From a virus (lineage: Duplodnaviria > Caudoviricetes): a DNA stretch of 64,000 nucleotides. Numbering within the stretch: the first letter of the stretch is position 1; each line of letters begins with the position of its first letter. The notes beneath the pieces are model-generated. The model was not told where the DNA came from, did no database searches, and was given only the letters and a program-made list of their open reading frames with translations. Positions 4,550-63,518 of this stretch are shown here, one piece after another. The stretch is from IMG/VR virus record IMGVR_UViG_3300033075_001228. One strand, 5' to 3'. A program made the position numbers and the translations under genes.

Positions 4550-5056
4550 ATGGATCACACTGATAGCATTGATGTAGATCTTGACGAACAAACAGAGCTG
4601 TTATTCAAGGTTAAAATCGAGGGAGCTAAGCAGGAAAAAGCAACAGTTAGGTTAGTGTGTGAAGGTAGCGATCACGCGTTGTTGTTTTCTGGCAAGTCGT
4701 TAGGACATGATGATTTGGTTCAATTCATCATTCCTAGCCTAGCCTCAAAGACAAATGAGGGCCTTCACTCTGCCAAGATTGAAGTTATGATTGAAAATCG
4801 TTACTTCGTTCCAGTTAGCTTTTCGCTTAACGTAAAGAAAACCATCAAAGTTGTCGCTGAGTCAGTTACAGAAGCTAAGAAGTTTTTTCAACCAAACGTC
4901 GTGGTGAAAGCTGAACCAGTAACACCTACGTTAAAAGAACGTTACGTTCAAAAGTCTAAATTGGTCGAAGTCCAAAAGCCAGTTGAAGATCTTAACGAAG
5001 AATCGATCCTGACGTTAGCCAGCAAATTCTTGCAGAAAAGCAAAACGAAACGCTAG
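4550..5056 (+). CDS. Hypothetical protein
   Basis: 168-aa ORF preceded by TAAATA 5 nt upstream. Confidence 0.6.
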   Translation: MDHTDSIDVDLDEQTELLFKVKIEGAKQEKATVRLVCEGSDHALLFSGKSLGHDDLVQFIIPSLASKTNEGLHSAKIEVMIENRYFVPVSFSLNVKKTIKVVAESVTEAKKFFQPNVVVKAEPVTPTLKERYVQKSKLVEVQKPVEDLNEESILTLASKFLQKSKTKR

Positions 5057-42386: not shown

Positions 42387-42455
42387 GTATGGGAACCATG
42401 AGGGCTGGTCTAAGTTCACCTGACCAGCCTTGGGTTGTTTACGCCTCGGGAGACA

Positions 42456-45400
42456 ATGTTGATGAAGACGTTTAAGTACCGTGAAGTCCGTGAAGCATCG
42501 CTTAAGTACTTCAATGGTGATGAGTTGGCAGCGGATGTTTTTGCGGGAAAGTACGCCCTTCGTGACCTAAAAGGCAACATCTATGAGCTGACTCCATCTG
42601 ACATGCATCGTCGCTTAGCGCGTGAGTTTGCTCGTGTTGAAGCGAAGTATCCGGACCCACTGTCAGAAGATGACATCTTTGCGTTGCTGTCGTCGTGGGA
42701 AGTGGTCCCACAAGGAAGCCCCATGGCTGCGCTTGGTAACGATTTTCAGTATCAATCGTTGTCCAATTGCTTCGTGGTTGAGTCTCCACACGATTCATAC
42801 GGCGGCATCATGAAGACCGACCAGGAACAGGCGCAGATCATGAAACGTCGAGGTGGCGTTGGATTTGATATCTCAACGATCAGGCCTCGCGGCATCCAGA
42901 CTGCAAACGCTGCCAGGACCACTGACGGCATCAGCGTCTTCATGGAGCGCTTCAGCAACACGTGTCGTGAAGTTGCGCAAGGCGGCCGCCGCGGAGCGTT
43001 GATGCTGACGATATCGGTGCATCACCCAGAGATCCGTACCTTTATCAACATCAAGAAGGACAAGAAGAAGGTAACCGGCGCCAACATCTCCATTCGCTTG
43101 ACCGATGAGTTCATGAACGCTGTCAAGGAAGGCGGCAACGTCCACCTACGCTTTCCGGTAGAGAAGGGCGTCCAGCACCTCGTTGAGGAGCACGTAGACG
43201 CTAGGCAGCTGTGGCATGAAATCATCGAAGCCGCGTGGGAGTCGGCTGAACCCGGCCTGTTGTTTTGGGACACCGTCCTTCGTCGCGGTCCAGCAGATGC
43301 ATACGCCGCGTTTGGGTACGGATCGACGAGCACGAACCCGTGTTTGGCGGGTGACACAAAGATTGCGACAGCTGACGGCCGCGGGTATGTATCCATTAAA
43401 CAGCTGGCCGAAGAAGGCAAGGACGTTCCGGTCTATTGTCATCAGGAGGCCACTGGAAAAATGATCGTTCGCCTAATGAGGAATCCTAGGTTGACTGGTG
43501 TCAACGTTCCCGTGTTCAAGGTGACGATTGAGGGTGGCCATACGTTCAAAGCAACCGGCAATCATGCGATGATCATGCGCGACGGAACCCGTAAACGAGT
43601 AGATGAACTTGTGACGGGTGATCAGCTAATGATCTCAAAGCGTGTTGAACGAACTCTTGTTGAATTGAATGCATCATCTCGTTCATCTAACCCAAACCAT
43701 TACGTGATTATCGAAAATGACAAAGGTTCAAAATGTGAACACCGGATGATTTGGGAACATTATCACGGAAAAATCCCGACAGGTCACGTGATTCATCACG
43801 TGAATTTTGACTCAAAAGATAACCGACTTGAGAATCTACAATGCATGGGCTACATGGAACATCGAGAGCTGCATGCTGCTGCGATTCGTGGGGAAAACAA
43901 TCCGATCTTCAAGATCAAAGCCGATCCAAAACGATTCGCAGAATACTCTGCTAAGCTGAGCGCGGCCACCTCGGGCGAGAACAACCCACGAGCTTTGGAT
44001 GTTTCTAACGATGACATCAGGCAACACGCGTTGTTCCTAACGCGTGAGCTTGGTCGCAGGGCATCTATCAAAGAATGGTATGCATATGCAAAGGCGTTGA
44101 ATCTGCCGATGAGCTTTACAGGCTCCCAGAGACATGAGCTTGGCAGCTTCTATGATCTATCGTTGTGGGCTGCAGGTGAGCTTGGGTTTGAACATGCGTC
44201 TATTGACGTTCGCGTCCAACGAACGCTCGCAGCCGCTGTTGAGCAAGGCTATGACGTTGACGTCATTGACGGTGAGGTTCACGTCAACCGGACGTGCGAG
44301 TGGTGCAATGAAGCGTTCACGAACCTGTGGGGACGACGTGAGATCGCCTTCTGTTCGCACTCGTGTTCTAATCTCTATGCAAATAGGAAGCAAGGCAAAA
44401 ACGAGGCGCGGAAGGCTTCGCTTCGGGCGATGCACGCTAGGAAAGCAGATGCGTCACGAGTTGCACAGCTCAACGCATTTACCGCGAGCAGGTTTGAGCT
44501 GCAACGCGATCCGACGTTTAACGAATGGGTTGCGAAGTGTAGGCAGGTTGGGTGCCCAGCTAGGATCGGTACGAAGAACGGGTTCGCCTCGTGGCCAGCG
44601 CTCAAGGAAGCCGCTGCAAATCACAATCATCGCGTCGTCAGCGTTGAACCGTGTGGCAGCGAGGACGTGTACAACGGGACGGTGGACGAAGAGCACAATT
44701 TTTGTTTTGGTGGATGGAACGTTGGTAATAACGAATTTTTACAAGTTCACAGTCGAAATTGCGGAGAGATTACGTTATCTCCGTACGACTCGTGTCGCCT
44801 GTTGCTCGTCAACCTCTCAAAGTTCGTCAAGGACCCATTCACTTCAGGAGCAAAGTTCGACTTCGAGCGGTTTCACACTGTCGTCGTAAGGGCACAAAAG
44901 CTTATGGATGATCTCGTCGATCTTGAGCTCGAGGCAGTCGACAGGATCATCAACAAGATTGACAATGATCCTGAGCCTGAAGACGTGAAACGTCTTGAAC
45001 GTGAGCTGTGGATGAAGATCCGCAACGCTGCCGCCAATGGACGCCGCACCGGTCTAGGCATCACAGCCTTGGGCGACACGTTGGCATTTTTGGGCATCAG
45101 GTACGGTTCAGAAGAATCTGTCAGGGTGACTGAACAGTTGTACCGAGCGCTCGCCTTGGGTGCATACAGGTCGACCGTCGAGATGGCACGTGATCGGGGT
45201 CCCTTCCCGATCTTCTCGCACAAGGTCGAAGCTGGTCACGAGTTCATCGAACAGGTGATGGCTGAGGACGCCGAACTCGCCGAGCTCTACAGGAAGTTCG
45301 GCCGCCGCAACATCGCGTTGACGACGACTGCGCCCGCGGGATCAGTTTCAATCCTGACGCAGACGACATCAGGCTGTGAACCAGCGTTCCTCCTGAGCTA

Positions 45401-46352
45401 CAAGCGTCGCAAGAAGATCAATCCGAACGACCAGGCAGCGCACGTCGACTTCGTCGACGCAATGGGTGACAAGTGGCAGGAGTACACTGTCTACCACCAC
45501 GGCTTCAAGAAATGGATGGAAGCCACTGGCGAGGAGGCGGTCGACAAGTCGCCCTATGCCGGTGCAACGAGCAACGACATCGATTGGGTCAAGAAGATCG
45601 ACGTTCAGGCGGCTGCACAGAAGTGGATCTGTCACTCGATCTCGAACACGACCAACATTCCCAAGGAAACCACGGTCGACGTCGTCAAGGACATCTATAT
45701 GCGTGGCTGGGAGACTGGGTGCAAGGGCGTCACCATTTACCTTGACGGTTCACGTGATGGCGTCCTTGTCACTGAAGAACACACACATGAAGGATTGATC
45801 GTTGATACGCATGCTCCGCGCCGGCCGAAGGTCCTACCGTGCGACATCCATCACGCACGTATTCAAGGCGAAAATTATGTTGTCATCGTTGGGCTGATGG
45901 ACGGCAGGCCGTACGAGGTGTTTGCTGGGTTACAGGAACACGTGGAGGTACCGAAGAAGGCTCCTAAACGCGGGAAGCTGACGAAGAACGGCAGGAACAA
46001 GAGCGGTATCGCTACCTACAACCTTAGCATCCTAGACAACGATGATGAGATGGTGTTCAAGGACATCGTGAACCTGTTCGACAACCCAGTTCACGGAGCG
46101 TTCACCAGGACGATTTCGTTGGCAATACGTCACGGTGTCCCGGTGCAATACCTGGTCGAGCAGCTCAAAAAGGACAAACACAGCGACATGACGTCGTTTT
46201 CTAACGTCATCGCAAGGGTTCTTAAGGCATACATCAACGACGGAGCAAAGGTGACTGCTGAGAAAAGCTGCGGAGAGTGTGGCTCATCTAACCTTCAGTA
46301 CCAACAAGGGTGCGTAACCTGCGCAGGTTGTGGTTGGAGCAAGTGTGGGTGA
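42456..46352 (+). CDS. nrdJ: Class II (adenosylcobalamin-dependent) ribonucleotide reductase with intein
   Basis: 'SLSNCF', 'RRGGVG', 'QGGRRGALM', NPC|GE split by the intein, 'TAPAGS..', 'GCKGVTIY'; C-terminal Cys-rich domain; no small subunit gene adjacent. Confidence 0.88.
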   Translation: MLMKTFKYREVREASLKYFNGDELAADVFAGKYALRDLKGNIYELTPSDMHRRLAREFARVEAKYPDPLSEDDIFALLSSWEVVPQGSPMAALGNDFQYQSLSNCFVVESPHDSYGGIMKTDQEQAQIMKRRGGVGFDISTIRPRGIQTANAARTTDGISVFMERFSNTCREVAQGGRRGALMLTISVHHPEIRTFINIKKDKKKVTGANISIRLTDEFMNAVKEGGNVHLRFPVEKGVQHLVEEHVDARQLWHEIIEAAWESAEPGLLFWDTVLRRGPADAYAAFGYGSTSTNPCLAGDTKIATADGRGYVSIKQLAEEGKDVPVYCHQEATGKMIVRLMRNPRLTGVNVPVFKVTIEGGHTFKATGNHAMIMRDGTRKRVDELVTGDQLMISKRVERTLVELNASSRSSNPNHYVIIENDKGSKCEHRMIWEHYHGKIPTGHVIHHVNFDSKDNRLENLQCMGYMEHRELHAAAIRGENNPIFKIKADPKRFAEYSAKLSAATSGENNPRALDVSNDDIRQHALFLTRELGRRASIKEWYAYAKALNLPMSFTGSQRHELGSFYDLSLWAAGELGFEHASIDVRVQRTLAAAVEQGYDVDVIDGEVHVNRTCEWCNEAFTNLWGRREIAFCSHSCSNLYANRKQGKNEARKASLRAMHARKADASRVAQLNAFTASRFELQRDPTFNEWVAKCRQVGCPARIGTKNGFASWPALKEAAANHNHRVVSVEPCGSEDVYNGTVDEEHNFCFGGWNVGNNEFLQVHSRNCGEITLSPYDSCRLLLVNLSKFVKDPFTSGAKFDFERFHTVVVRAQKLMDDLVDLELEAVDRIINKIDNDPEPEDVKRLERELWMKIRNAAANGRRTGLGITALGDTLAFLGIRYGSEESVRVTEQLYRALALGAYRSTVEMARDRGPFPIFSHKVEAGHEFIEQVMAEDAELAELYRKFGRRNIALTTTAPAGSVSILTQTTSGCEPAFLLSYKRRKKINPNDQAAHVDFVDAMGDKWQEYTVYHHGFKKWMEATGEEAVDKSPYAGATSNDIDWVKKIDVQAAAQKWICHSISNTTNIPKETTVDVVKDIYMRGWETGCKGVTIYLDGSRDGVLVTEEHTHEGLIVDTHAPRRPKVLPCDIHHARIQGENYVVIVGLMDGRPYEVFAGLQEHVEVPKKAPKRGKLTKNGRNKSGIATYNLSILDNDDEMVFKDIVNLFDNPVHGAFTRTISLAIRHGVPVQYLVEQLKKDKHSDMTSFSNVIARVLKAYINDGAKVTAEKSCGECGSSNLQYQQGCVTCAGCGWSKCG
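43341..44759 (+). mobile_element. Intein (473 aa) with HNH endonuclease, inserted at the RNR active-site Cys
   Basis: Starts 'CLAGDTKIATADG', block B 'ATGNH', HNH 'IHHVNFDSKDNRLENL', ends 'VYNGTVDEEHNF...VHSRN' followed by C(GE). Confidence 0.92.
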
Positions 46353-52637: not shown

Positions 52638-53255
52638 ATGGTGCCCTTCGTCGTTAACCCAACGAGCTACAACAAGGCTCAGGCGTTTGTCGCGGCTCAA
52701 AAGTACGTTGGTGACTTCTTGTCGCTCAACAGCCTTTGTGCGCCATCGAAGCTGATCACAGAGGCATTGACGGGCCACGAGAACAGGTGGCGCGACTATG
52801 GATGGTACAAGTTCGACACGACGGAGATGTTCGTCAACCTAAAGAAGTCGCGCCCGCCCGTCAAGACGCCCGGGTTTCAGTGGTCGTTCACGGGTTTCAA
52901 GGCCGACCTAACGGCACCCGGCATCCTGGCCCATGAGACTGGTCACCACATCCACAACATCCTCAACCCACGCGTTGGCTCTAAGGCCCTGATCAAGATG
53001 ATCAAGAAGTGCGCGGACGCCGAGCCTCATGTCTCCAGCTACGAACCTAACGCTCATGAGGTCTTCGCTGAAGCGATGCGCCTCTTTATCCTCAACCCCG
53101 AGCTGCTGCGAGAGGGGCGCCCAATCAGGTGGGCCTTGATCAACGGAGACCTGGGTTTGAAGCCACTGCACGCGGCGCCTTGGCGCGATGTGCTCGTTCA
53201 CGCTCACCCGCGGCTCATCGCTGCGGCCAAGTCCTGGATCGATCATGCACTTTGA
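52638..53255 (+). CDS. Putative zincin metallopeptidase-like protein
   Basis: 'ILAHETGHH' followed by 'SSY..N..EVFAE'. Confidence 0.65.
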   Translation: MVPFVVNPTSYNKAQAFVAAQKYVGDFLSLNSLCAPSKLITEALTGHENRWRDYGWYKFDTTEMFVNLKKSRPPVKTPGFQWSFTGFKADLTAPGILAHETGHHIHNILNPRVGSKALIKMIKKCADAEPHVSSYEPNAHEVFAEAMRLFILNPELLREGRPIRWALINGDLGLKPLHAAPWRDVLVHAHPRLIAAAKSWIDHAL

Positions 53256-54201
53256 TGTCGAAAAGCGAACAATTGCGTTGGTGAGGCACGGTAGCCATGC
53301 ATATGGGCTCAACGTGCCGACGTCTGACGAGGACTTCAAAGGTGTTTGCATCAAGCCCAAGGAGTGCTACTTCGGGTTCACCCGAACCTTCGAACAGCAC
53401 GAACACATGGGCTCCAAGAGCGACGGCGTCGACAAGGTCGTCTACTCGCTCGACAAGTTCGCCAAGCTGGCGGCTGACTGTAACCCGAACATCATCGAGG
53501 TTCTGCACGTTTCAGAATCGAGCGTGCTACGCCTCGACGAGTTTGGAGAGGAGTTACGAAGCATCAGGAACGAGTTCCTGTCGAAGAAGGCGAAATTCAC
53601 CTTTTCTGGTTACGCTCACGCGCAGCTAAACAGGATCAAGACGCACCGTTCGTGGCTGCTCAACCCACCCAAGGAAGTTCCAACACGAAAATCGTTTGGA
53701 TTGTCGGAGACGACAAAGGTGTCGACGTCCGAACTGGGCGCGTTCGATGCAGCGGTACGTGAGGGCATCGAAATCGAGATGACCAATGACATGCTGACCT
53801 TGTTCACCAGGGAGAAGCAGTACCAAGCAGCCAAGACGCGCTATGACCAATACGTCGGTTGGGTCAAGACACGTAACCCGGCTAGGGCTGAGCTCGAATC
53901 TAAGCACGGGTACGACACCAAGCACGGCATGCACCTGCTTCGTCTCATGCGAATGGCCAAGGAGATCCTGGCTGATCACGTTGTCTATGTCGACAGGCGA
54001 GCCAGGGGCGACCGCGACGAGCTCCTTGCCGTCAGGTTCGGTGACAGGTCGTACGACTCTTTGATCGAAGAGGCTGAACGTCTTGAAGCAGAGTGTGAAG
54101 AGCTGTATAAGACGTCGACCCTTCGAAAGGAACCGGACAGGAACATGCTTGACGCTGTGGTAATTGACATCACCGATCGTTACCTACGTATGCACGGATA
54201 G
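53245..54201 (+). CDS. Pol-beta superfamily nucleotidyltransferase (T4 nrdC.11/RlaP-like)
   Basis: 'GSHAYGL..PTSDED.KG', 'NPNIIEVL', 'GYDTKHGMHLLRL'. Confidence 0.85.
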   Translation: MHFDVEKRTIALVRHGSHAYGLNVPTSDEDFKGVCIKPKECYFGFTRTFEQHEHMGSKSDGVDKVVYSLDKFAKLAADCNPNIIEVLHVSESSVLRLDEFGEELRSIRNEFLSKKAKFTFSGYAHAQLNRIKTHRSWLLNPPKEVPTRKSFGLSETTKVSTSELGAFDAAVREGIEIEMTNDMLTLFTREKQYQAAKTRYDQYVGWVKTRNPARAELESKHGYDTKHGMHLLRLMRMAKEILADHVVYVDRRARGDRDELLAVRFGDRSYDSLIEEAERLEAECEELYKTSTLRKEPDRNMLDAVVIDITDRYLRMHG

Positions 54202-54584: not shown

Positions 54585-55316
54585 ATGACCAAGCTTTGCC
54601 AAGTCATTGCAGTTGAGAAGTCTGTCAAGAACAAGGCCCATGAAGGCATCACTGCAGCGTACCAGCGTATGCAGAAGCCAGCGTTGCTGGCGGGTATCTC
54701 ACGGACGTATCGTCCAAACGAGGAAGCTGGTGAGCAGCTTCCGTCTGAGTCGTCAAAGGTGCAGCTCAACGCAGCAGACCTTTTGAAGGACGTTGCGAAG
54801 GCGATGGTCGACCTGCTGGACGTCACGGCCACGAAGGACTCCGCGAACTGCCTCGCGAAGGCTGACGTTGTCGTCGGTGACGTTGTCCTTGCCAAGGAGG
54901 TTCCTGTCACCTACCTCATCTTTCTCGAGAAGAAGCTTGTTGACATCCATACGTTCGTCAGCAAGCTGCCGACGCTTGACCCGAGCGAGGAGTGGACGCT
55001 GGACCCAAACGTCGGTTGCTTCGTGTCGAAGCCGTCTGATACTGTCAGGACGAAGAAGGTGTTCGTGCCTCTCGTTTTGGCTCCAGCGACCGACAAGCAT
55101 CCTGCGCAGGTGAAAGAAGGCTTTGAAGATAAGCCTGTCGGCACCTGGCGTACCATCAAGTTTTCTGGCGCACTGCCTGCGCAGAAGGTCGCTGACATGC
55201 TAGAGCGCGTCGAGCGCCTGCAGAAAGCGGTGAAGTTTGCTCGTGAGGAGGCCAACTCTCGCGACGTTGACCAGGTGAAGGTCGGCGAGAAGGTGTTCAA
55301 CTTTCTGTTCGGTTGA
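54585..55316 (+). CDS. Hypothetical protein (243 aa) immediately upstream of the tRNA-like ncRNA
   Basis: AAGGA RBS; codon use looks like a highly expressed gene; helical ends with a central beta region ('ATDKHPAQV'). Confidence 0.85.
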   Translation: MTKLCQVIAVEKSVKNKAHEGITAAYQRMQKPALLAGISRTYRPNEEAGEQLPSESSKVQLNAADLLKDVAKAMVDLLDVTATKDSANCLAKADVVVGDVVLAKEVPVTYLIFLEKKLVDIHTFVSKLPTLDPSEEWTLDPNVGCFVSKPSDTVRTKKVFVPLVLAPATDKHPAQVKEGFEDKPVGTWRTIKFSGALPAQKVADMLERVERLQKAVKFAREEANSRDVDQVKVGEKVFNFLFG

Positions 55317-55327
55317 TCCGGACAGGA

Positions 55328-55522
55328 TTGCGCAAGCTGATAACATCAGTCTTACGCTAACAAAAGCACGATCCAGTGCAGGTTCGATTCCTGCCCCTCT
55401 CACCAAGGACGTGTACAGTCCTTGTAAAGCATCCAGGAAAGCTTGAAAAACATTTCCTGGGTCGACGAGAGGGTGGCGCAAATTGGCAGACGCTAGTGGT
55501 TCTTAACCTGAAGCTATCGCAA
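55328..55522 (+). ncRNA. Circularly permuted tRNA-like domain 1 (YrlA-like topology)
   Basis: T arm GCAGG-TTCGATT-CCTGC 55378-94; acceptor 3' strand CCCTCTC+ACCA 55395-405; then acceptor 5' strand GAGAGGG 55467-73 (7/7 pairs) and Leu-type D arm GCG-CAAATTGGCAGA-CGC 55476-93; closing stem 55328-38/55512-22. Confidence 0.85.
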
Positions 55523-55534
55523 CAGGTTTACTGA

Positions 55535-55765
55535 GTCGATACGGAGAACGTTCAATCGATCGCTAACAGGCTGAATTTACGTACCGATGAGGGTTCAAGT
55601 CCCTCCTGGACCTCCAAGCACGTCGATGCTGCGTCATTGATAGTGCCCTTGCCCAAGGTGATGCAGCATTCTTAGGCGTTCGGTTCGGTAGCTTAAAGGT
55701 AGAGCAGGCACGTCTAAGGGCTGACCCGTTGGCTTAAATGTGTGAACGACTCTTGATACATCGAC
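55535..55765 (+). ncRNA. Circularly permuted tRNA-like domain 2 (YrlA-like topology)
   Basis: T arm GAGGG-TTCAAGT-CCCTC 55589-605; CTGGACC+TCCA 55606-16; then GGTTCGG 55682-88 (7/7 with 2 G:U) and D arm GCTT-AAAGGTA-GAGC 55691-705; long closing rod out to GTCGAT/ATCGAC. Confidence 0.85.
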
Positions 55766-55792
55766 GATGACAATGTTTGTCATCAACAAACA

Positions 55793-55832
55793 GGGGGCCC
55801 GGGTAGGATACAACCGGGCCCTCGCTAATTTT
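55793..55832 (+). terminator. GC-rich hairpin ending the ncRNA unit
   Basis: GGGGGCCCGG...CCGGGCCCTC followed by GCTAATTTT. Confidence 0.65.
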
Positions 55833-55876
55833 ACGCACAGCAAGTCCAGGCCTGGTGCGTTGTAGTAGGGTTTCTT

Positions 55877-56131
55877 ATGAAGATTCGTTTCATCAAAGGC
55901 GTTAGGTTCAACAAGGGCTCGCTTCTGGGGCTGCGTTCCGAAACGTTTGCAGTTGACTTTGGCGTTTATCGTTGCTGCTTGGGCTCAGTCGAGAAGCTGG
56001 AGCCGTGTTACCTTCAGGAAGCGTCGCCAAACCAAGGCTGGATCTGGGGCCGCGCCGTGGAACGTTACGATAAGATGATCGATTACCTTGGTTTTGGTCC
56101 CGTCATGCTCTTTAGCTGGATTCCTAGATGA
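55877..56131 (+). CDS. Hypothetical protein
   Basis: 84-aa ORF. Confidence 0.45.
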   Translation: MKIRFIKGVRFNKGSLLGLRSETFAVDFGVYRCCLGSVEKLEPCYLQEASPNQGWIWGRAVERYDKMIDYLGFGPVMLFSWIPR

Positions 56132-56178
56132 AATTCGACTAGTGTAACTGTTGCCCAAGTAGTGTTACGATGGCTACA

Positions 56179-56679
56179 ATGGCTTTTTGTAATCTTCTGT
56201 GTAGGTGTGGCAAGTCCTGCGACAGACAGGATGATCACGGCGGCGATTGCGATTGTCGCGAGCCACATGCGTCTAGGTACGTCTTTTACGCCATTGCTAA
56301 CAGGCCCGATCTTGATGGCGCTAAGTGGTATCGCACGTACAGCCATCACAACGAGGCTGGCTTTGTTGACGACGTTGCTGACGCTAAGATCTGGGCGAGG
56401 AAGTCGCTAGCGCAAGGCAAGTGTACCCGCCTTGGGAACGAAGCGTATCTCATCGAGTTCGTCGTTGAGAAAGTCAACGTGGTCGACCAACGCGAACGAC
56501 TCAGGGAACTCGCTGAAAAGAAACGTCGAGCGGAAGAACAGCGACGCAAAACTCAAGCCGAGCGTGAGATCGATGATGCGCTGCGGGCCCTCAAGGCCTC
56601 GCAAGACAAGGTCGCCAGGTTGACCGGCGGCCACAAGTACGATGACCAGTGTGGTTGCAAGTCGTGCATGGGAATGTGA
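56179..56679 (+). CDS. Hypothetical Cys-rich protein with coiled coil
   Basis: Cys clusters at both ends; ATG 7 nt after a -10-like element. Confidence 0.6.
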   Translation: MAFCNLLCRCGKSCDRQDDHGGDCDCREPHASRYVFYAIANRPDLDGAKWYRTYSHHNEAGFVDDVADAKIWARKSLAQGKCTRLGNEAYLIEFVVEKVNVVDQRERLRELAEKKRRAEEQRRKTQAEREIDDALRALKASQDKVARLTGGHKYDDQCGCKSCMGM

Positions 56680-56690
56680 AAGAAGAAACA

Positions 56691-57701
56691 ATGCGAACTC
56701 TCTTTATTCTACGCGGGCTCCCGGGCTCAGGTAAGTCGACCCTTGCTGCGGAACTCATCCGCAAGGAACCCAATCGATGGATCCGTGTCAATAGGGATGA
56801 TTTGCGGTCTATGTGCGTGGGCCCGGGCAACAACCCGCACGCTCGAAACGATGACCGCGAGGAACTCGTTCGTGGCATGAAGGAGGCGCTCATGCGCCAG
56901 GCCTTTGACGCTGGTTACGACGTCATCCTGGATGACACGCATCTGGTCCCGATGACGGTGAAGAAGCTGCATCAGGCCGCAGCAGCGTACGGCGACGTCA
57001 AGGTCATCGAGAAGGGCGTCAACGTCGACATCAAGACCGCCATCGAGCGAGACTCGAAGCGGACGGGCTTCGCCCACGTCGGCGAGAAGGTGATCATGGA
57101 CATGGCGCGTGGAGCCGGCATCGACAAGGGCCGGAAGCTGAGCGATAAGGAAGCGTACTACGAACCGCGCCCGGGATCGTTCAAGGTCGAGCTTAAGCAG
57201 GATGAAAGCCTGCCTGCGGCGATCCTATGTGATCTTGACGGTACGCTTGCCATCATCAACGACAGGTCTCCGTACGATGCGACCGACTGCGACCTCAAGG
57301 ACAAGCCGAACTGGCCCGTGATCCGCACCGTCCTGGCGATGCACGCACGCGGCTACAAGATCGTGTTCATGTCAGGTCGAGACGAGAAGTATCGACCTGA
57401 GACTGTGCGCTTCATCAAGAAGTACTGCGTTCGTCAGAACAAGGAGAACGTCTTCTTCAACGGCAAGCCTGTTGCCGTCAACGAACCGATTGGTTTTGAG
57501 CTGCACATGCGCGGCGAGACGAACCCCGATCCGTCGAAGGCCGACATGCGCAAGGACGCTGTCATCAAGCAGGAGCTTTTCGACAGGTTTGTGCGCGGCA
57601 AGTACTACGTTGACTTCGTGCTCGATGACCGTGATCAAGTTTGCAAGTTGTGGAGAGAAATTGGCCTGACCTGTTTTCAGGTCAATTATGGTGCTTTCTA
57701 G
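56691..57701 (+). CDS. pseT: Polynucleotide 5'-kinase / 3'-phosphatase (T4 PseT-like)
   Basis: 'RGLPGSGKST...RDDLR' kinase; HAD 'DLDGTL', 'SGR', 'DDRDQV..WR.IGL.CFQV..GAF'. Confidence 0.9.
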   Translation: MRTLFILRGLPGSGKSTLAAELIRKEPNRWIRVNRDDLRSMCVGPGNNPHARNDDREELVRGMKEALMRQAFDAGYDVILDDTHLVPMTVKKLHQAAAAYGDVKVIEKGVNVDIKTAIERDSKRTGFAHVGEKVIMDMARGAGIDKGRKLSDKEAYYEPRPGSFKVELKQDESLPAAILCDLDGTLAIINDRSPYDATDCDLKDKPNWPVIRTVLAMHARGYKIVFMSGRDEKYRPETVRFIKKYCVRQNKENVFFNGKPVAVNEPIGFELHMRGETNPDPSKADMRKDAVIKQELFDRFVRGKYYVDFVLDDRDQVCKLWREIGLTCFQVNYGAF

Positions 57702-62678: not shown

Positions 62679-62717
62679 TGTAACAACGCGCGCCGTCGTT
62701 GTAAGATGACCTTTACC

Positions 62718-63518
62718 ATGGAACACCAGATTCGGAAATACCCTAGGACGCGCCACGTTAGGGGCTCTCGACTTCAACATGGCGACCATGATCTGGAGGC
62801 TGTGCCGTGGTCTGAGCTTGAAGGCAAGAACCTCGTCGTTGAAGAAAAGATGGATGGAGCTAACTGCGGCATCAGCTTTTCAGAAGACGGAAGGCTTCTT
62901 CTCCAGTCAAGGGGCCACTACCTTCGTGGAGGGCCACGAGAAAAACAATTCAACCTGTTTAAGCAGTGGGCATCATCGCGTCAGGAAGAATTTTTCTGTG
63001 CCCTTGGTTCAAGGTACGTCATGTATGGCGAATGGCTCTTTGCCAAGCATACGTTTTTCTACGATGCATTACCTCACTATTTCATGGAGTTTGACATCTT
63101 AGACACCCAAGAAGGGAGTTTTCTAGACACACACAGGCGTGCTGCGTTGCTGGCTGCCGCAGATGTCAATGTCACCCCAGTCAAGGTCCTTTATGAAGGA
63201 ACTGTTGCCTCTGTCGATGCCTTGGCAAAGATGGTCACAAGGTCACACTTCATCACCGACGATCGTGTCATCAACTTTAGCAACGCAGCCAGGATGTCTG
63301 GTGTCGCCGCGGCGGATGGATGGCGTCACACGGATCCTTCGACTGACATGGAAGGCCTCTACGTCAAGTGGGAAGAGGACGGAGTTGTCAAAGGTCGCTA
63401 CAAATACGTTAGGGACTCGTTCACAAGCTCCATCCTAGATCAGGACGAACACTGGGTGGACAGGCCAATCATCCAAAACCAGCTTATGCCTGGCGCGTTT
63501 GAAAAAATGTTTTTGTGA
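62718..63518 (+). CDS. ATP-dependent RNA ligase family protein
   Basis: 'KYPRT.H', motif I 'EEKMDGAN', 'YGEW', 'EFD', 'EGL', 'KYVR'; start 62706 or 62718. Confidence 0.85.
   Translation: MEHQIRKYPRTRHVRGSRLQHGDHDLEAVPWSELEGKNLVVEEKMDGANCGISFSEDGRLLLQSRGHYLRGGPREKQFNLFKQWASSRQEEFFCALGSRYVMYGEWLFAKHTFFYDALPHYFMEFDILDTQEGSFLDTHRRAALLAAADVNVTPVKVLYEGTVASVDALAKMVTRSHFITDDRVINFSNAARMSGVAAADGWRHTDPSTDMEGLYVKWEEDGVVKGRYKYVRDSFTSSILDQDEHWVDRPIIQNQLMPGAFEKMFL

What the first reader, a model, noticed from the sequence alone, without database searches (positions are those of the whole stretch)
55395..55688. Both permuted modules keep an encoded NCCA and a structured, potentially excisable linker
Seen: ACCA (55402-05) and TCCA (55613-16) sit exactly at discriminator+CCA positions. 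They are followed by 61-nt and 65-nt linkers that fold on their own (CAAGGAC/GTCCTTG, CCAGGAAA/TTTCCTGG; ATGCTGCGTCA/TGATGCAGCAT). Established: RNase P and 3'-trimming nucleases recognise the acceptor/T-arm elbow, and LeuRS largely ignores the anticodon and reads A73 plus tertiary shape. Inference: removing the linkers would give a multi-piece RNA with two free CCA ends. Module 1 has A73 and a Leu-like D loop but no long variable arm; module 2 has U73. The RNA might be charged, or might titrate synthetases or EF-Tu.
Basis: partly seen in the sequence, partly recalled or inferred. Interest (0 to 1): 0.7.

Follow-up and report, generated by a model that had tools for sequence, protein, structure and literature searches.

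The report
Loop inserts in phage double tRNA-mimic
The two "NCCA plus linker" stretches are the oversized end loops of two tRNA look-alike domains in one roughly 500-base phage RNA that always travels with an unknown protein gene (DUF7873); the sequence suggests, but cannot show, that tRNA-processing enzymes open these loops.

Summary
ACCA (55402-05) and UCCA (55613-16) follow perfect 7-bp acceptor-like stems, and 61- and 65-nt self-folding linkers come next.

A covariance model built only from short-loop homologues finds exactly these two modules (E 1.5e-10 and 1.3e-8). It places the linkers as insertions right after NCCA.

The modules are two YrlA-type, permuted tRNA-like domains of one ~500-nt RNA encoded after a DUF7873 gene. 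The unit sits inside an RlaP-PNKP-Rnl RNA-repair cassette. This scan has met the DUF7873/double tRNA-mimic pair many times on other DNA. I found it neither in Rfam 15 nor in the papers searched.

New here:
- **Loop length:** across 140 phage modules the loop is 4-76 nt (median 9.5). The window's linkers are fast-evolving, clade-specific extremes.
- **3' end:** C74 is kept in 91%. CCA is kept in 42% of phage copies, against about 2% background and 10% in neighbouring true tRNA genes, but in only 16% of bacterial copies.
- **Stem and leader:** 95% have exactly 7 bp. G1:C72 is present in 82%. In phage copies the last loop bases resemble tRNA leaders.
- **Charging:** there are no conserved synthetase identity elements.

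These are RNase P-substrate features, and M. smegmatis YrlA is a precedent. Cleavage is plausible (about 45%) but unproven. Charging is unlikely.

The parts
54585..55316 (+). DUF7873 gene (243 aa), the constant protein-coding partner of the RNA
   Evidence: Pfam PF25283 E 6.9e-104. The family has 2326 clusters at 50% identity. The RNA modules lie downstream of it in 78 of 82 sources searched.
55305..55325 (+). 8-bp hairpin spanning the DUF7873 stop codon; possible 5' boundary or processing structure of the RNA
   Evidence: Sequence. Equivalent hairpins are seen in relatives in the segment A alignment.
55330..55357 (+). 5' hairpin P1 (GCGCAAGCUGAU...AUCAGUCUUACGC)
   Evidence: Alignment and RNAalifold consensus of 8 clade members.
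55378..55401 (+). Module 1 T-arm (55378-94) and 3' acceptor strand (55395-401)
   Evidence: R1 hit at 43.8 bits. T and acceptor helices covary in the family: 216 double-changed cells against 65 in shuffles.
55402..55405 (+). A73-C74-C75-A76 of module 1, the start of the acceptor loop
   Evidence: In first modules A73 occurs in 41/61. Across all modules C74 occurs in 127/140 and CCA in 59/140.
55406..55466 (+). Linker 1: a 61-nt two-hairpin insertion in the acceptor loop
   Evidence: z -3.7 for the whole loop, A73-CCA plus linker, against dinucleotide shuffles. Modelled as an insertion by R1. It is the longest first-module loop among the 61 two-module phage loci. Only the first hairpin shares sequence with one relative, L099.
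55467..55493 (+). Module 1 5' acceptor strand (55467-73), U8 and a Leu-type D-arm (55474-93)
55505..55539 (+). Conserved central block AACCUGAAGCUAUCGCAACAGGUUUACUGAGUCGA with helix 55505-10/55523-28
   Evidence: Alignment B and RNAalifold.
55579..55585 (+). 5' strand of the anticodon-stem-like closing helix of module 2; pairs with 55707-13 and has one C-A mismatch
   Evidence: A 7-bp duplex is present with different sequences in most of the 27 loci examined.
55589..55612 (+). Module 2 T-arm (55589-605) and 3' acceptor strand (55606-12)
   Evidence: R1 hit at 36.7 bits. A weak YrlA match of 19.1 bits spans 55568-55738.
55613..55616 (+). U73-C74-C75-A76 of module 2
   Evidence: U73 occurs in 46/61 second modules.
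55617..55681 (+). Linker 2: a 65-nt long-hairpin insertion in the acceptor loop
   Evidence: z -2.9 for the whole loop, U73-CCA plus linker. No homologue was found among 13 clade members. No copy elsewhere in the window.
55682..55713 (+). Module 2 5' acceptor strand (55682-88), D-arm (55689-705), A26, and the 3' strand of the closing helix (55707-13)
55713..55746 (+). Conserved 3' blocks UCUAAGGGCUGA (55713-24) and UUAAAUGUGUGAA (55734-46); helix 55728-32 pairs with 55563-67
   Evidence: Alignment C. Compensatory changes between the window and L003 were read from that alignment.
55793..55823 (+). 3' GC-rich hairpin with conserved loop UAGGAUACA; probable end of the RNA
   Evidence: Not called by the simple terminator scan because the U-run is weak.
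53188..54201 (+). RlaP nucleotidyltransferase, upstream member of the RNA-repair cassette
   Evidence: PF10127 E 1.3e-20. The order RlaP-DUF7873-RNA-PNKP is kept in L001, L002, L004 and L009.
56649..57701 (+). Polynucleotide kinase-phosphatase (PNKP), downstream member of the cassette
   Evidence: PF25109 E 8e-44, PF13671, phrog_505.
62706..63518 (+). RNA ligase
   Evidence: PF09414 E 6e-33.

Best explanation
The flagged stretch holds the apical loops of the two acceptor-like stems of one structured, roughly 500-nt phage RNA (about 55305-55825). This RNA is probably co-transcribed with the DUF7873 gene. It carries two YrlA-type tRNA mimics. Each has a closing helix, a T-arm, a 7-bp acceptor helix and a D-arm, and neither has an anticodon loop. 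The 61- and 65-nt linkers are clade-specific, fast-evolving hairpin insertions into loops that are 6-10 nt long in most homologues. They are therefore dispensable for the core function. The loop start N73-C74(-Y75-R76) is a family motif. The full CCA seen here is the commonest single variant in phage copies, but it is not required. Inferred mechanism: with DUF7873, the RNA presents two tRNA elbow/acceptor mimics to tRNA-handling enzymes, within a phage RNA-repair cassette (RlaP, PNKP, Rnl). Whether the loops are opened is unresolved. The stems have the sequence features of bacterial RNase P substrates. I put about 45% on RNase P nicking at 55466/55467 and 55681/55682 followed by 3' trimming, as shown for M. 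smegmatis YrlA. I put about 10% on aminoacylation.
For: - Independent detection: model R1 hits exactly the two modules.
- Helices: the T and acceptor helices covary.
- Closing helices for both modules are present, with different sequences, in most loci examined.
- Gene pairing: the RNA follows DUF7873 in IMG/VR, metagenome, cultured-phage and bacterial loci.
- Loop census of 140 distinct phage modules: loop 4-76 nt, median 9.5, only 9 above 40 nt; 7/7 pairs in 133; C74 in 127; CCA in 59; G1:C72 in 115.
- CCA background inside long loops is 2.5%.
- Neighbouring true tRNA genes encode CCA in 13/127, against 27/63 modules in the same loci (Fisher p 8e-7).
- The last three loop bases have the same Y-R-Y, G-poor profile as real tRNA leaders in those loci.
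- N73:N-1 pairing is depleted: 40 observed against 59 expected.
- Linkers in the window's clade differ in length (10-76 nt) and sequence despite 73-83% identical DUF7873.
- The order RlaP-DUF7873-RNA-PNKP(-Rnl) recurs in four distinct relatives.
- Precedent: a YrlA with a 7-bp stem is cut by RNase P and gets CCA in vivo (PMC4201824; 10.1101/312249).
Against: - There are no transcript, end-mapping or binding data.
- CCA is absent from 58% of phage modules and 84% of bacterial modules.
- Bacterial copies keep C(-3) in 88% and G(-2) in 64% but have no U(-1) preference. This points to a family-specific loop motif, perhaps read in closed form, rather than a generic RNase P leader.
- Nine of 57 long loops are fully paired extensions of the acceptor helix.
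- In the window, the first linker hairpin can sequester C75-A76. Only 2-4 nt are single-stranded before +1.
- The solved S. Typhimurium YrlA has a closed loop.
- That DUF7873 binds the RNA is inferred from gene order only. Its fold matches nothing informative.
Confidence: 0.75

Rival explanations
1. Obligate multi-piece maturation. Both linkers are excised by RNase P and 3' nucleases in every infection. This gives three pieces held together by the two acceptor helices, with two free CCA ends that are aminoacylated or that titrate synthetases or EF-Tu.
For: - Stems of 7 bp, G1:C72, C74, and CCA enrichment over neighbouring tRNA genes.
- Leader-like loop ends in phage copies.
- Loop length is unconstrained.
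- M. smegmatis YrlA precedent.
- Module 1 has A73 and a Leu-type D-arm.
Against: - CCA is missing in most family members, and 9 of 57 long loops are fully paired.
- No conserved identity set: every acceptor pair varies, N73 varies, and G3:U70 occurs in 3/140.
- There is no anticodon arm.
- No conserved tag-like reading frame: the frame through the conserved block stops early in L004 and runs on in L006 (read).
Confidence: 0.1
2. Closed-loop mimic only. The loops are never opened. N73-C74...C(-3)-R(-2) is a structured loop recognised as such (for example by DUF7873), and the linkers are neutral expansion segments.
For: - Conserved bases at both loop ends in bacterial copies, without U(-1).
- Fully paired loop variants exist.
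- The YrlA crystal structure has a closed loop.
- CCA is dispensable.
Against: - Ro-linked YrlA-type modules in the same bacterial genomes cap the stem with only 2-5 nt and no such motif. The 6-8-nt minimum and the exact 7-bp stem here are therefore a specific constraint.
- RNase P cuts the one tested 7-bp YrlA.
- CCA is four times more frequent than in neighbouring tRNA genes.
Confidence: 0.4
3. A two-piece (permuted) tmRNA, or degenerate or split tRNA genes.
For: The gene order T-arm, acceptor 3' strand, CCA, spacer, acceptor 5' strand is that of permuted ssrA. There is a local beta_tmRNA match of 17.7 bits.
Against: - ARAGORN finds no tmRNA or tRNA.
- The match is far below the gathering score (84 bits) and covers only the T and acceptor helices.
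- No G3:U70, no conserved tag frame and no anticodon loops.
- There are two modules in one RNA, conserved with covariation across phyla.
Confidence: 0.02

Closest known systems
YrlA (Y RNA-like A, Rfam RF02553), partner of bacterial and phage Ro60/Rsr (Chen et al. 2014, PMC4201824; Wang et al. 2018, 10.1101/312249)
   Same: Same permuted order: closing stem, T-arm, acceptor-like stem-loop, D-arm. tRNA elbow nucleotides are kept, there is no anticodon loop, and both are linked to RNA-repair genes. The M. smegmatis member, with a 7-bp stem, is opened by RNase P and receives CCA. My model R1 also detects Ro-linked modules in bacterial genomes.
   Different: - Only 19.1 bits against a gathering score of 69.
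- No GNCGAAN0-1G Ro-binding motif.
- No TROVE gene in the window ORFs scanned or in 5 related contigs.
- Two modules sit in one ~500-nt RNA, and the constant neighbour is DUF7873.
- Stems are exactly 7 bp with 6-nt or longer loops carrying N73-C74, whereas Ro-linked modules in the same genomes have 2-5-nt caps.
Two-piece (circularly permuted) tmRNA of alpha- and beta-proteobacteria and cyanobacteria
   Same: A permuted gene in which an encoded CCA is followed by an intervening segment that is removed, leaving pieces held together by the acceptor helix.
   Different: No Ala identity, no tag frame and no pseudoknot architecture detected. ARAGORN is negative, and Rfam reaches 17.7 of 84 bits.
Circularly permuted tRNA genes of Cyanidioschyzon merolae (Soma et al. 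2007, as cited in 10.1101/312249)
   Same: The 3' half precedes the 5' half, and the acceptor loop is opened by RNase P or RNase Z.
   Different: Those mature into real tRNAs through a circular intermediate made by a splicing endonuclease. Here there is no anticodon loop and no such enzyme is known in bacteria.

Membership tests
YrlA (RF02553) | Permuted tRNA-like module: T-arm, acceptor-like stem-loop and D-arm on a closing stem | tested here: met
YrlA (RF02553) | Reaches the Rfam gathering score | tested here: not met
   19.1 bits against 69, E 0.3, module 2 only. No hit at gathering thresholds.
YrlA (RF02553) | Ro-binding helix with the GNCGAAN0-1G motif | tested here: not met
   No match in 55300-55850.
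YrlA (RF02553) | Encoded next to a Ro60/TROVE gene | tested here: not met
   No TROVE among the 27 window ORFs scanned or in 5 related viral contigs. The whole phage genome is not held, and a host Ro cannot be excluded.
Two-piece tmRNA | G3:U70 and A73 for alanine charging, and a tag reading frame | tested here: not met
   3:70 is G-C in module 1 and U-A in module 2. G3:U70 occurs in 3/140 family-wide. ARAGORN finds none. The candidate frame is not conserved.
tRNA or permuted tRNA gene | Anticodon stem-loop | tested here: not met
   ARAGORN finds 0 genes. The closing stems lead into other helices, not into a 7-nt loop.
Bacterial RNase P substrate (functional class) | T-arm stacked on a 7-bp acceptor helix, unpaired N73, C74(C75), and a single-stranded -1 | tested here: met
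   Sequence features only. In the window -1 is C in both modules, and C75-A76 of module 1 may be paired.
Bacterial RNase P substrate (functional class) | Actual cleavage at -1/+1 | not testable with these tools
DUF7873-associated double tRNA-mimic RNA (this scan's informal class, not a published family) | Two R1-type modules within about 500 nt downstream of a DUF7873 gene, on the same strand | tested here: met
   Two modules were found in 60 of 78 phage loci.

The most novel reading that the evidence does not exclude
RNase P and 3' exonucleases open both loops, with CCA encoded here or completed by the CCA-adding enzyme elsewhere. This would turn the transcript into a three-piece, two-headed acceptor-stem mimic with two free CCA ends. 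Bound by DUF7873 inside the phage's RlaP-PNKP-Rnl cassette, it would act on tRNA 3'-end biology. It might be a sink for host defence enzymes that attack or modify tRNA acceptor ends, or a docking platform that brings the repair enzymes to damaged tRNAs.
Probability: 0.2. Interest if true: 0.85.

Novelty: new variant of a known kind. Interest (0 to 1): 0.6.

Why it matters
tRNA mimics that work outside translation are few. Known examples are tmRNA, viral tRNA-like structures, mascRNA and YrlA. This RNA has two such mimics on one scaffold. It lacks the Ro-binding motif, has no Ro gene beside it, and always sits next to one unknown protein. In this phage clade it is wedged between the enzymes that heal and seal broken tRNAs.

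The loop census gives a concrete, cheap experiment: are the acceptor loops cut at -1/+1, and is CCA exposed? A positive result would define a new processed RNA-protein particle in phage-host conflicts over tRNA. A negative result would show that a near-perfect RNase P substrate is shielded in vivo, presumably by DUF7873. Either way the long linkers of this window are natural evidence that the loop tolerates large cargo.

Tried and rejected
- **Standard RNA annotation:** ARAGORN and Rfam at gathering scores find nothing.
- **DNA similarity:** blastn of the locus against cultured phages gives no match.
- **DUF7873 fold:** a high-confidence model (pLDDT 95) matches nothing in the PDB by Foldseek. 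VIA-align gives only generic helical matches with Z of 8.6 or less. The ESM Atlas feature search is uninformative.
- **Literature:** no paper mentions DUF7873. Burroughs and Aravind 2016 is not held. The supplements of Chen et al. 2014 are not held. So the M. smegmatis YrlA loop could not be compared base by base.
- **Rejected readings:**
  - A repeat or mobile-element origin for the linkers: no other copy in the window.
  - An internal promoter or terminator splitting the RNA: none found in 55000-56200 apart from a promoter-like site at 56151.
  - A tmRNA tag reading: the frame is not conserved.
- **Failed scan:** the first genome-contig scan with the broad alignment failed for lack of a conserved stretch. 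It was repeated with a narrower alignment.

Full report
**Observation**

The region 55317-55876 is intergenic, between a DUF7873 gene (54585-55316, PF25283, E 6.9e-104) and a small ORF.

Read directly, module 1 is:
- T-arm 55378-94
- 3' acceptor strand CCCUCUC 55395-401
- ACCA 55402-05
- a 61-nt linker 55406-66
- 5' acceptor strand GAGAGGG 55467-73
- U8 and D-arm 55474-93

Module 2 is:
- T-arm 55589-605
- CUGGACC 55606-12
- UCCA 55613-16
- a 65-nt linker 55617-81
- GGUUCGG 55682-88
- D-arm 55689-705

The whole loops, N73-CCA plus linker, fold better than dinucleotide shuffles (z -3.7 and -2.9).

**Independent test**

ARAGORN and Rfam at gathering thresholds see nothing. A permissive Rfam scan gives YrlA at 19.1 bits over module 2 and a local beta_tmRNA match over the T and acceptor helices of module 1.

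I collected relatives through the DUF7873 protein. From them I built covariance model R1, using 57 short-loop modules from other contigs only. R1 hits the window at exactly 55378-55493 (43.8 bits, E 1.5e-10) and 55589-55705 (36.7 bits, E 1.3e-8). Nothing else in the window is significant. R1 models the 61 and 65 nt as insertions immediately after NCCA.

In the seed alignment both helices covary strongly: 216 double-changed cells against 65 in shuffles, and 42 extra pair types against 29. The seed was chosen for perfect pairing, so the percentage paired is true by construction.

**What it is**

The same two modules follow DUF7873 in several kinds of source:
- IMG/VR contigs.
- Metagenome contigs.
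- Cultured phages of Rhodococcus, Klebsiella, Ralstonia, Pseudanabaena and Arthrobacter; in a Rhizobium phage only one module was found.
- Bacterial chromosomes, mainly Streptomyces, plus Planctomycetota, Chloroflexota, Sorangium and Armatimonadota.

Both modules sit on anticodon-stem-like closing helices that change sequence but keep pairing. For module 2 of the window this helix is 55579-85 with 55707-13.

Conserved blocks and a 3' hairpin with a conserved loop (55793-55823) flank the modules. The unit is therefore one structured RNA of roughly 500 nt with two YrlA-type tRNA mimics.

It is not a YrlA by membership:
- It lies far below the gathering score.
- It has no GNCGAAN0-1G Ro-binding motif.
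- No TROVE gene was found among the window ORFs scanned or in five related contigs.

This scan has reported the DUF7873/double tRNA-mimic pair many times on other DNA. I found no paper naming DUF7873.

In this clade the unit is embedded in an RNA-repair cassette. RlaP (53188-54201) lies upstream, and PNKP (56649-57701) and an RNA ligase (62706-63518) lie downstream. The same order occurs in L001, L002, L004 and L009.

**The NCCA question**

An R1 census of 82 sources gave 140 distinct modules downstream of DUF7873. Sixty loci had two modules.

| Feature | Count |
|---|---|
| Acceptor stem 7/7 paired | 133/140 |
| G1:C72 | 115/140 |
| C74 | 127/140 |
| CCA at 74-76 | 59/140 (42%) |
| N73 = A in first modules | 41/61 |
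| N73 = U in second modules | 46/61 |
| G3:U70 | 3/140 |

Three comparisons put the CCA figure in context:
- CCA elsewhere inside long loops runs at 2.5%.
- True tRNA genes in the same loci encode CCA in 13/127, against 27/63 modules (p 8e-7). Those tRNA genes also keep C74 in 85%.
- In 121 bacterial modules C74 is kept (87%) but CCA falls to 16%. CUU and CUC are the common forms there.

In the window's own clade of 13 loci, CCA is present in 4 first modules and 9 second modules. So C74 is a family constant. CCA is strongly enriched in phage copies but is not required.

**The linker question**

Loops run from 4 to 76 nt with a median of 9.5. Only 9 of 140 exceed 40 nt. The window has the longest first-module loop and one of the four longest second-module loops. 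Short loops read N-CCA-(N)-C-R-U.

Within the window's clade (DUF7873 73-83% identical), linkers range from 10 to 76 nt and are not alignable to the window's. The one exception is a shared ACCAAG..GUGUACAG with L099.

Most clade linkers share a design: N73-C-Y-R, then a stable hairpin, then an A/U-rich single-stranded tail. Family-wide, 47 of 57 long loops contain a hairpin. Nine are fully paired extensions of the acceptor helix, which leaves no free CCA. The linkers are unique in the window. They are therefore fast-evolving insertions at a permissive site, not a conserved functional element.

**Are the loops opened?**

Evidence for:
- Chen et al. showed that M. smegmatis YrlA, singled out for its seven-base-pair acceptor stem, is cut by RNase P in vitro and in vivo and receives CA to complete CCA.
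- Here the stem is exactly 7 bp in 95% of modules.
- N73:N-1 pairing is depleted, 40 observed against 59 expected.
- In phage copies the last three loop bases have the same Y-R-Y, G-poor profile as real tRNA leaders in the same loci.
- Ro-linked R1-type modules in bacterial genomes that also carry a DUF7873 locus cap their stems with only 2-5 nt and no such motif.

Evidence against:
- Bacterial copies conserve C(-3) and G(-2) but not U(-1). That looks like a family-specific loop motif.
- Fully paired loops exist.
- In the window C75-A76 of module 1 can be sequestered in the first hairpin, and only 2-4 nt are free before +1.
- No expression data could be obtained.

I put cleavage at about 45%.

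**Charging or titration**

Every acceptor pair varies. N73 is only a majority rule. G3:U70 is absent and there is no anticodon arm. The Leu-like D-arm and A73 of module 1 are real, and relatives even carry a variable-arm-like hairpin before T-arm 1. But this looks like ancestry rather than a conserved identity set. I give charging about 10%.

**DUF7873**

The family is large, with 2326 clusters at 50% identity. It models confidently (pLDDT 95). It has no informative structural relative. Its binding to the RNA is inferred from gene order alone.

**Verdict**

The finding is a lineage-specific elaboration (large loop inserts with intact NCCA) of a widespread tRNA-mimic RNA that I could not find described. 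The family-level loop statistics make RNase P-type opening a testable hypothesis, but it remains unproven.

Noticed in passing
L013:4518-4597 (Klebsiella phage vB_KpM_FBKp24, MW394391.1): The record annotates a 'tRNA-OTHER / tRNA-Sup-TTA' that overlaps the T-arm, 3' acceptor strand and ACCA of module 2 of the DUF7873-linked RNA (module at 4570-4648). It is probably a false suppressor-tRNA call caused by the mimic.
   Followed up: partly
G007, G009, G010, G008 (loci L190-L193): All 5 bacterial genomes checked that carry a DUF7873 locus also carry a TROVE/Ro gene elsewhere. In four of them, R1-type modules with tiny 2-5-nt acceptor caps lie within about 2 kb of it, on the same strand. The Ro/YrlA and DUF7873 systems therefore co-occur rather than replace each other.
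   Followed up: partly
window 55793-55823, and equivalents in L001-L009, L015, L017: The 3' 'terminator' hairpin has a conserved loop, UAGGAUACA (AGGAUA core), across relatives with different stems. This suggests a function beyond termination. A similar AUAGGAUAAAU lies upstream of module 1 in phage NiceHouse (L012, about 4285).
   Followed up: no
window 55305-55325: An 8-bp hairpin spans the DUF7873 stop codon. Equivalent hairpins occur in relatives. It may be a processing or coupling signal between the mRNA and the RNA.
   Followed up: no
L001/L018:4001-4036 (IMGVR_UViG_3300014208_001166): The DUF7873 gene has an in-frame stop at codon 12 of the match, although it is 83% identical to the window's protein. 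This could be a sequencing error, a recoded stop or a recent pseudogene.
   Followed up: no
canonical tRNA genes in L012-L097 (ARAGORN): Phage tRNA genes in these loci rarely encode CCA (about 10%) but keep C at position 74 in 85%. Their leaders carry information only at -3 to -1 (Y-A-U, G-poor).
   Followed up: partly
L194 (G006:C1:2547000-2547800): A strong R1 module (49.3 bits, 7-nt loop GCGCGAU) and part of a second lie far from the DUF7873 locus and the TROVE gene of this Streptomyces genome. This may be a second copy of the RNA or another partner.
   Followed up: no
window 42435-46352: The ribonucleotide reductase large subunit is interrupted by an intein with an HNH endonuclease (Pfam Intein_splicing, HNH_3).
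   Followed up: no
window 55403-55410, 55614-55618 and 55654-55664: Both loops begin NCCAAG. CAAGG/CCUUG words recur in both linkers (CAAGGAC...GUCCUUG in linker 1, CCUUGCCCAAGG in linker 2). A linker-linker contact is conceivable but untested.
   Followed up: no
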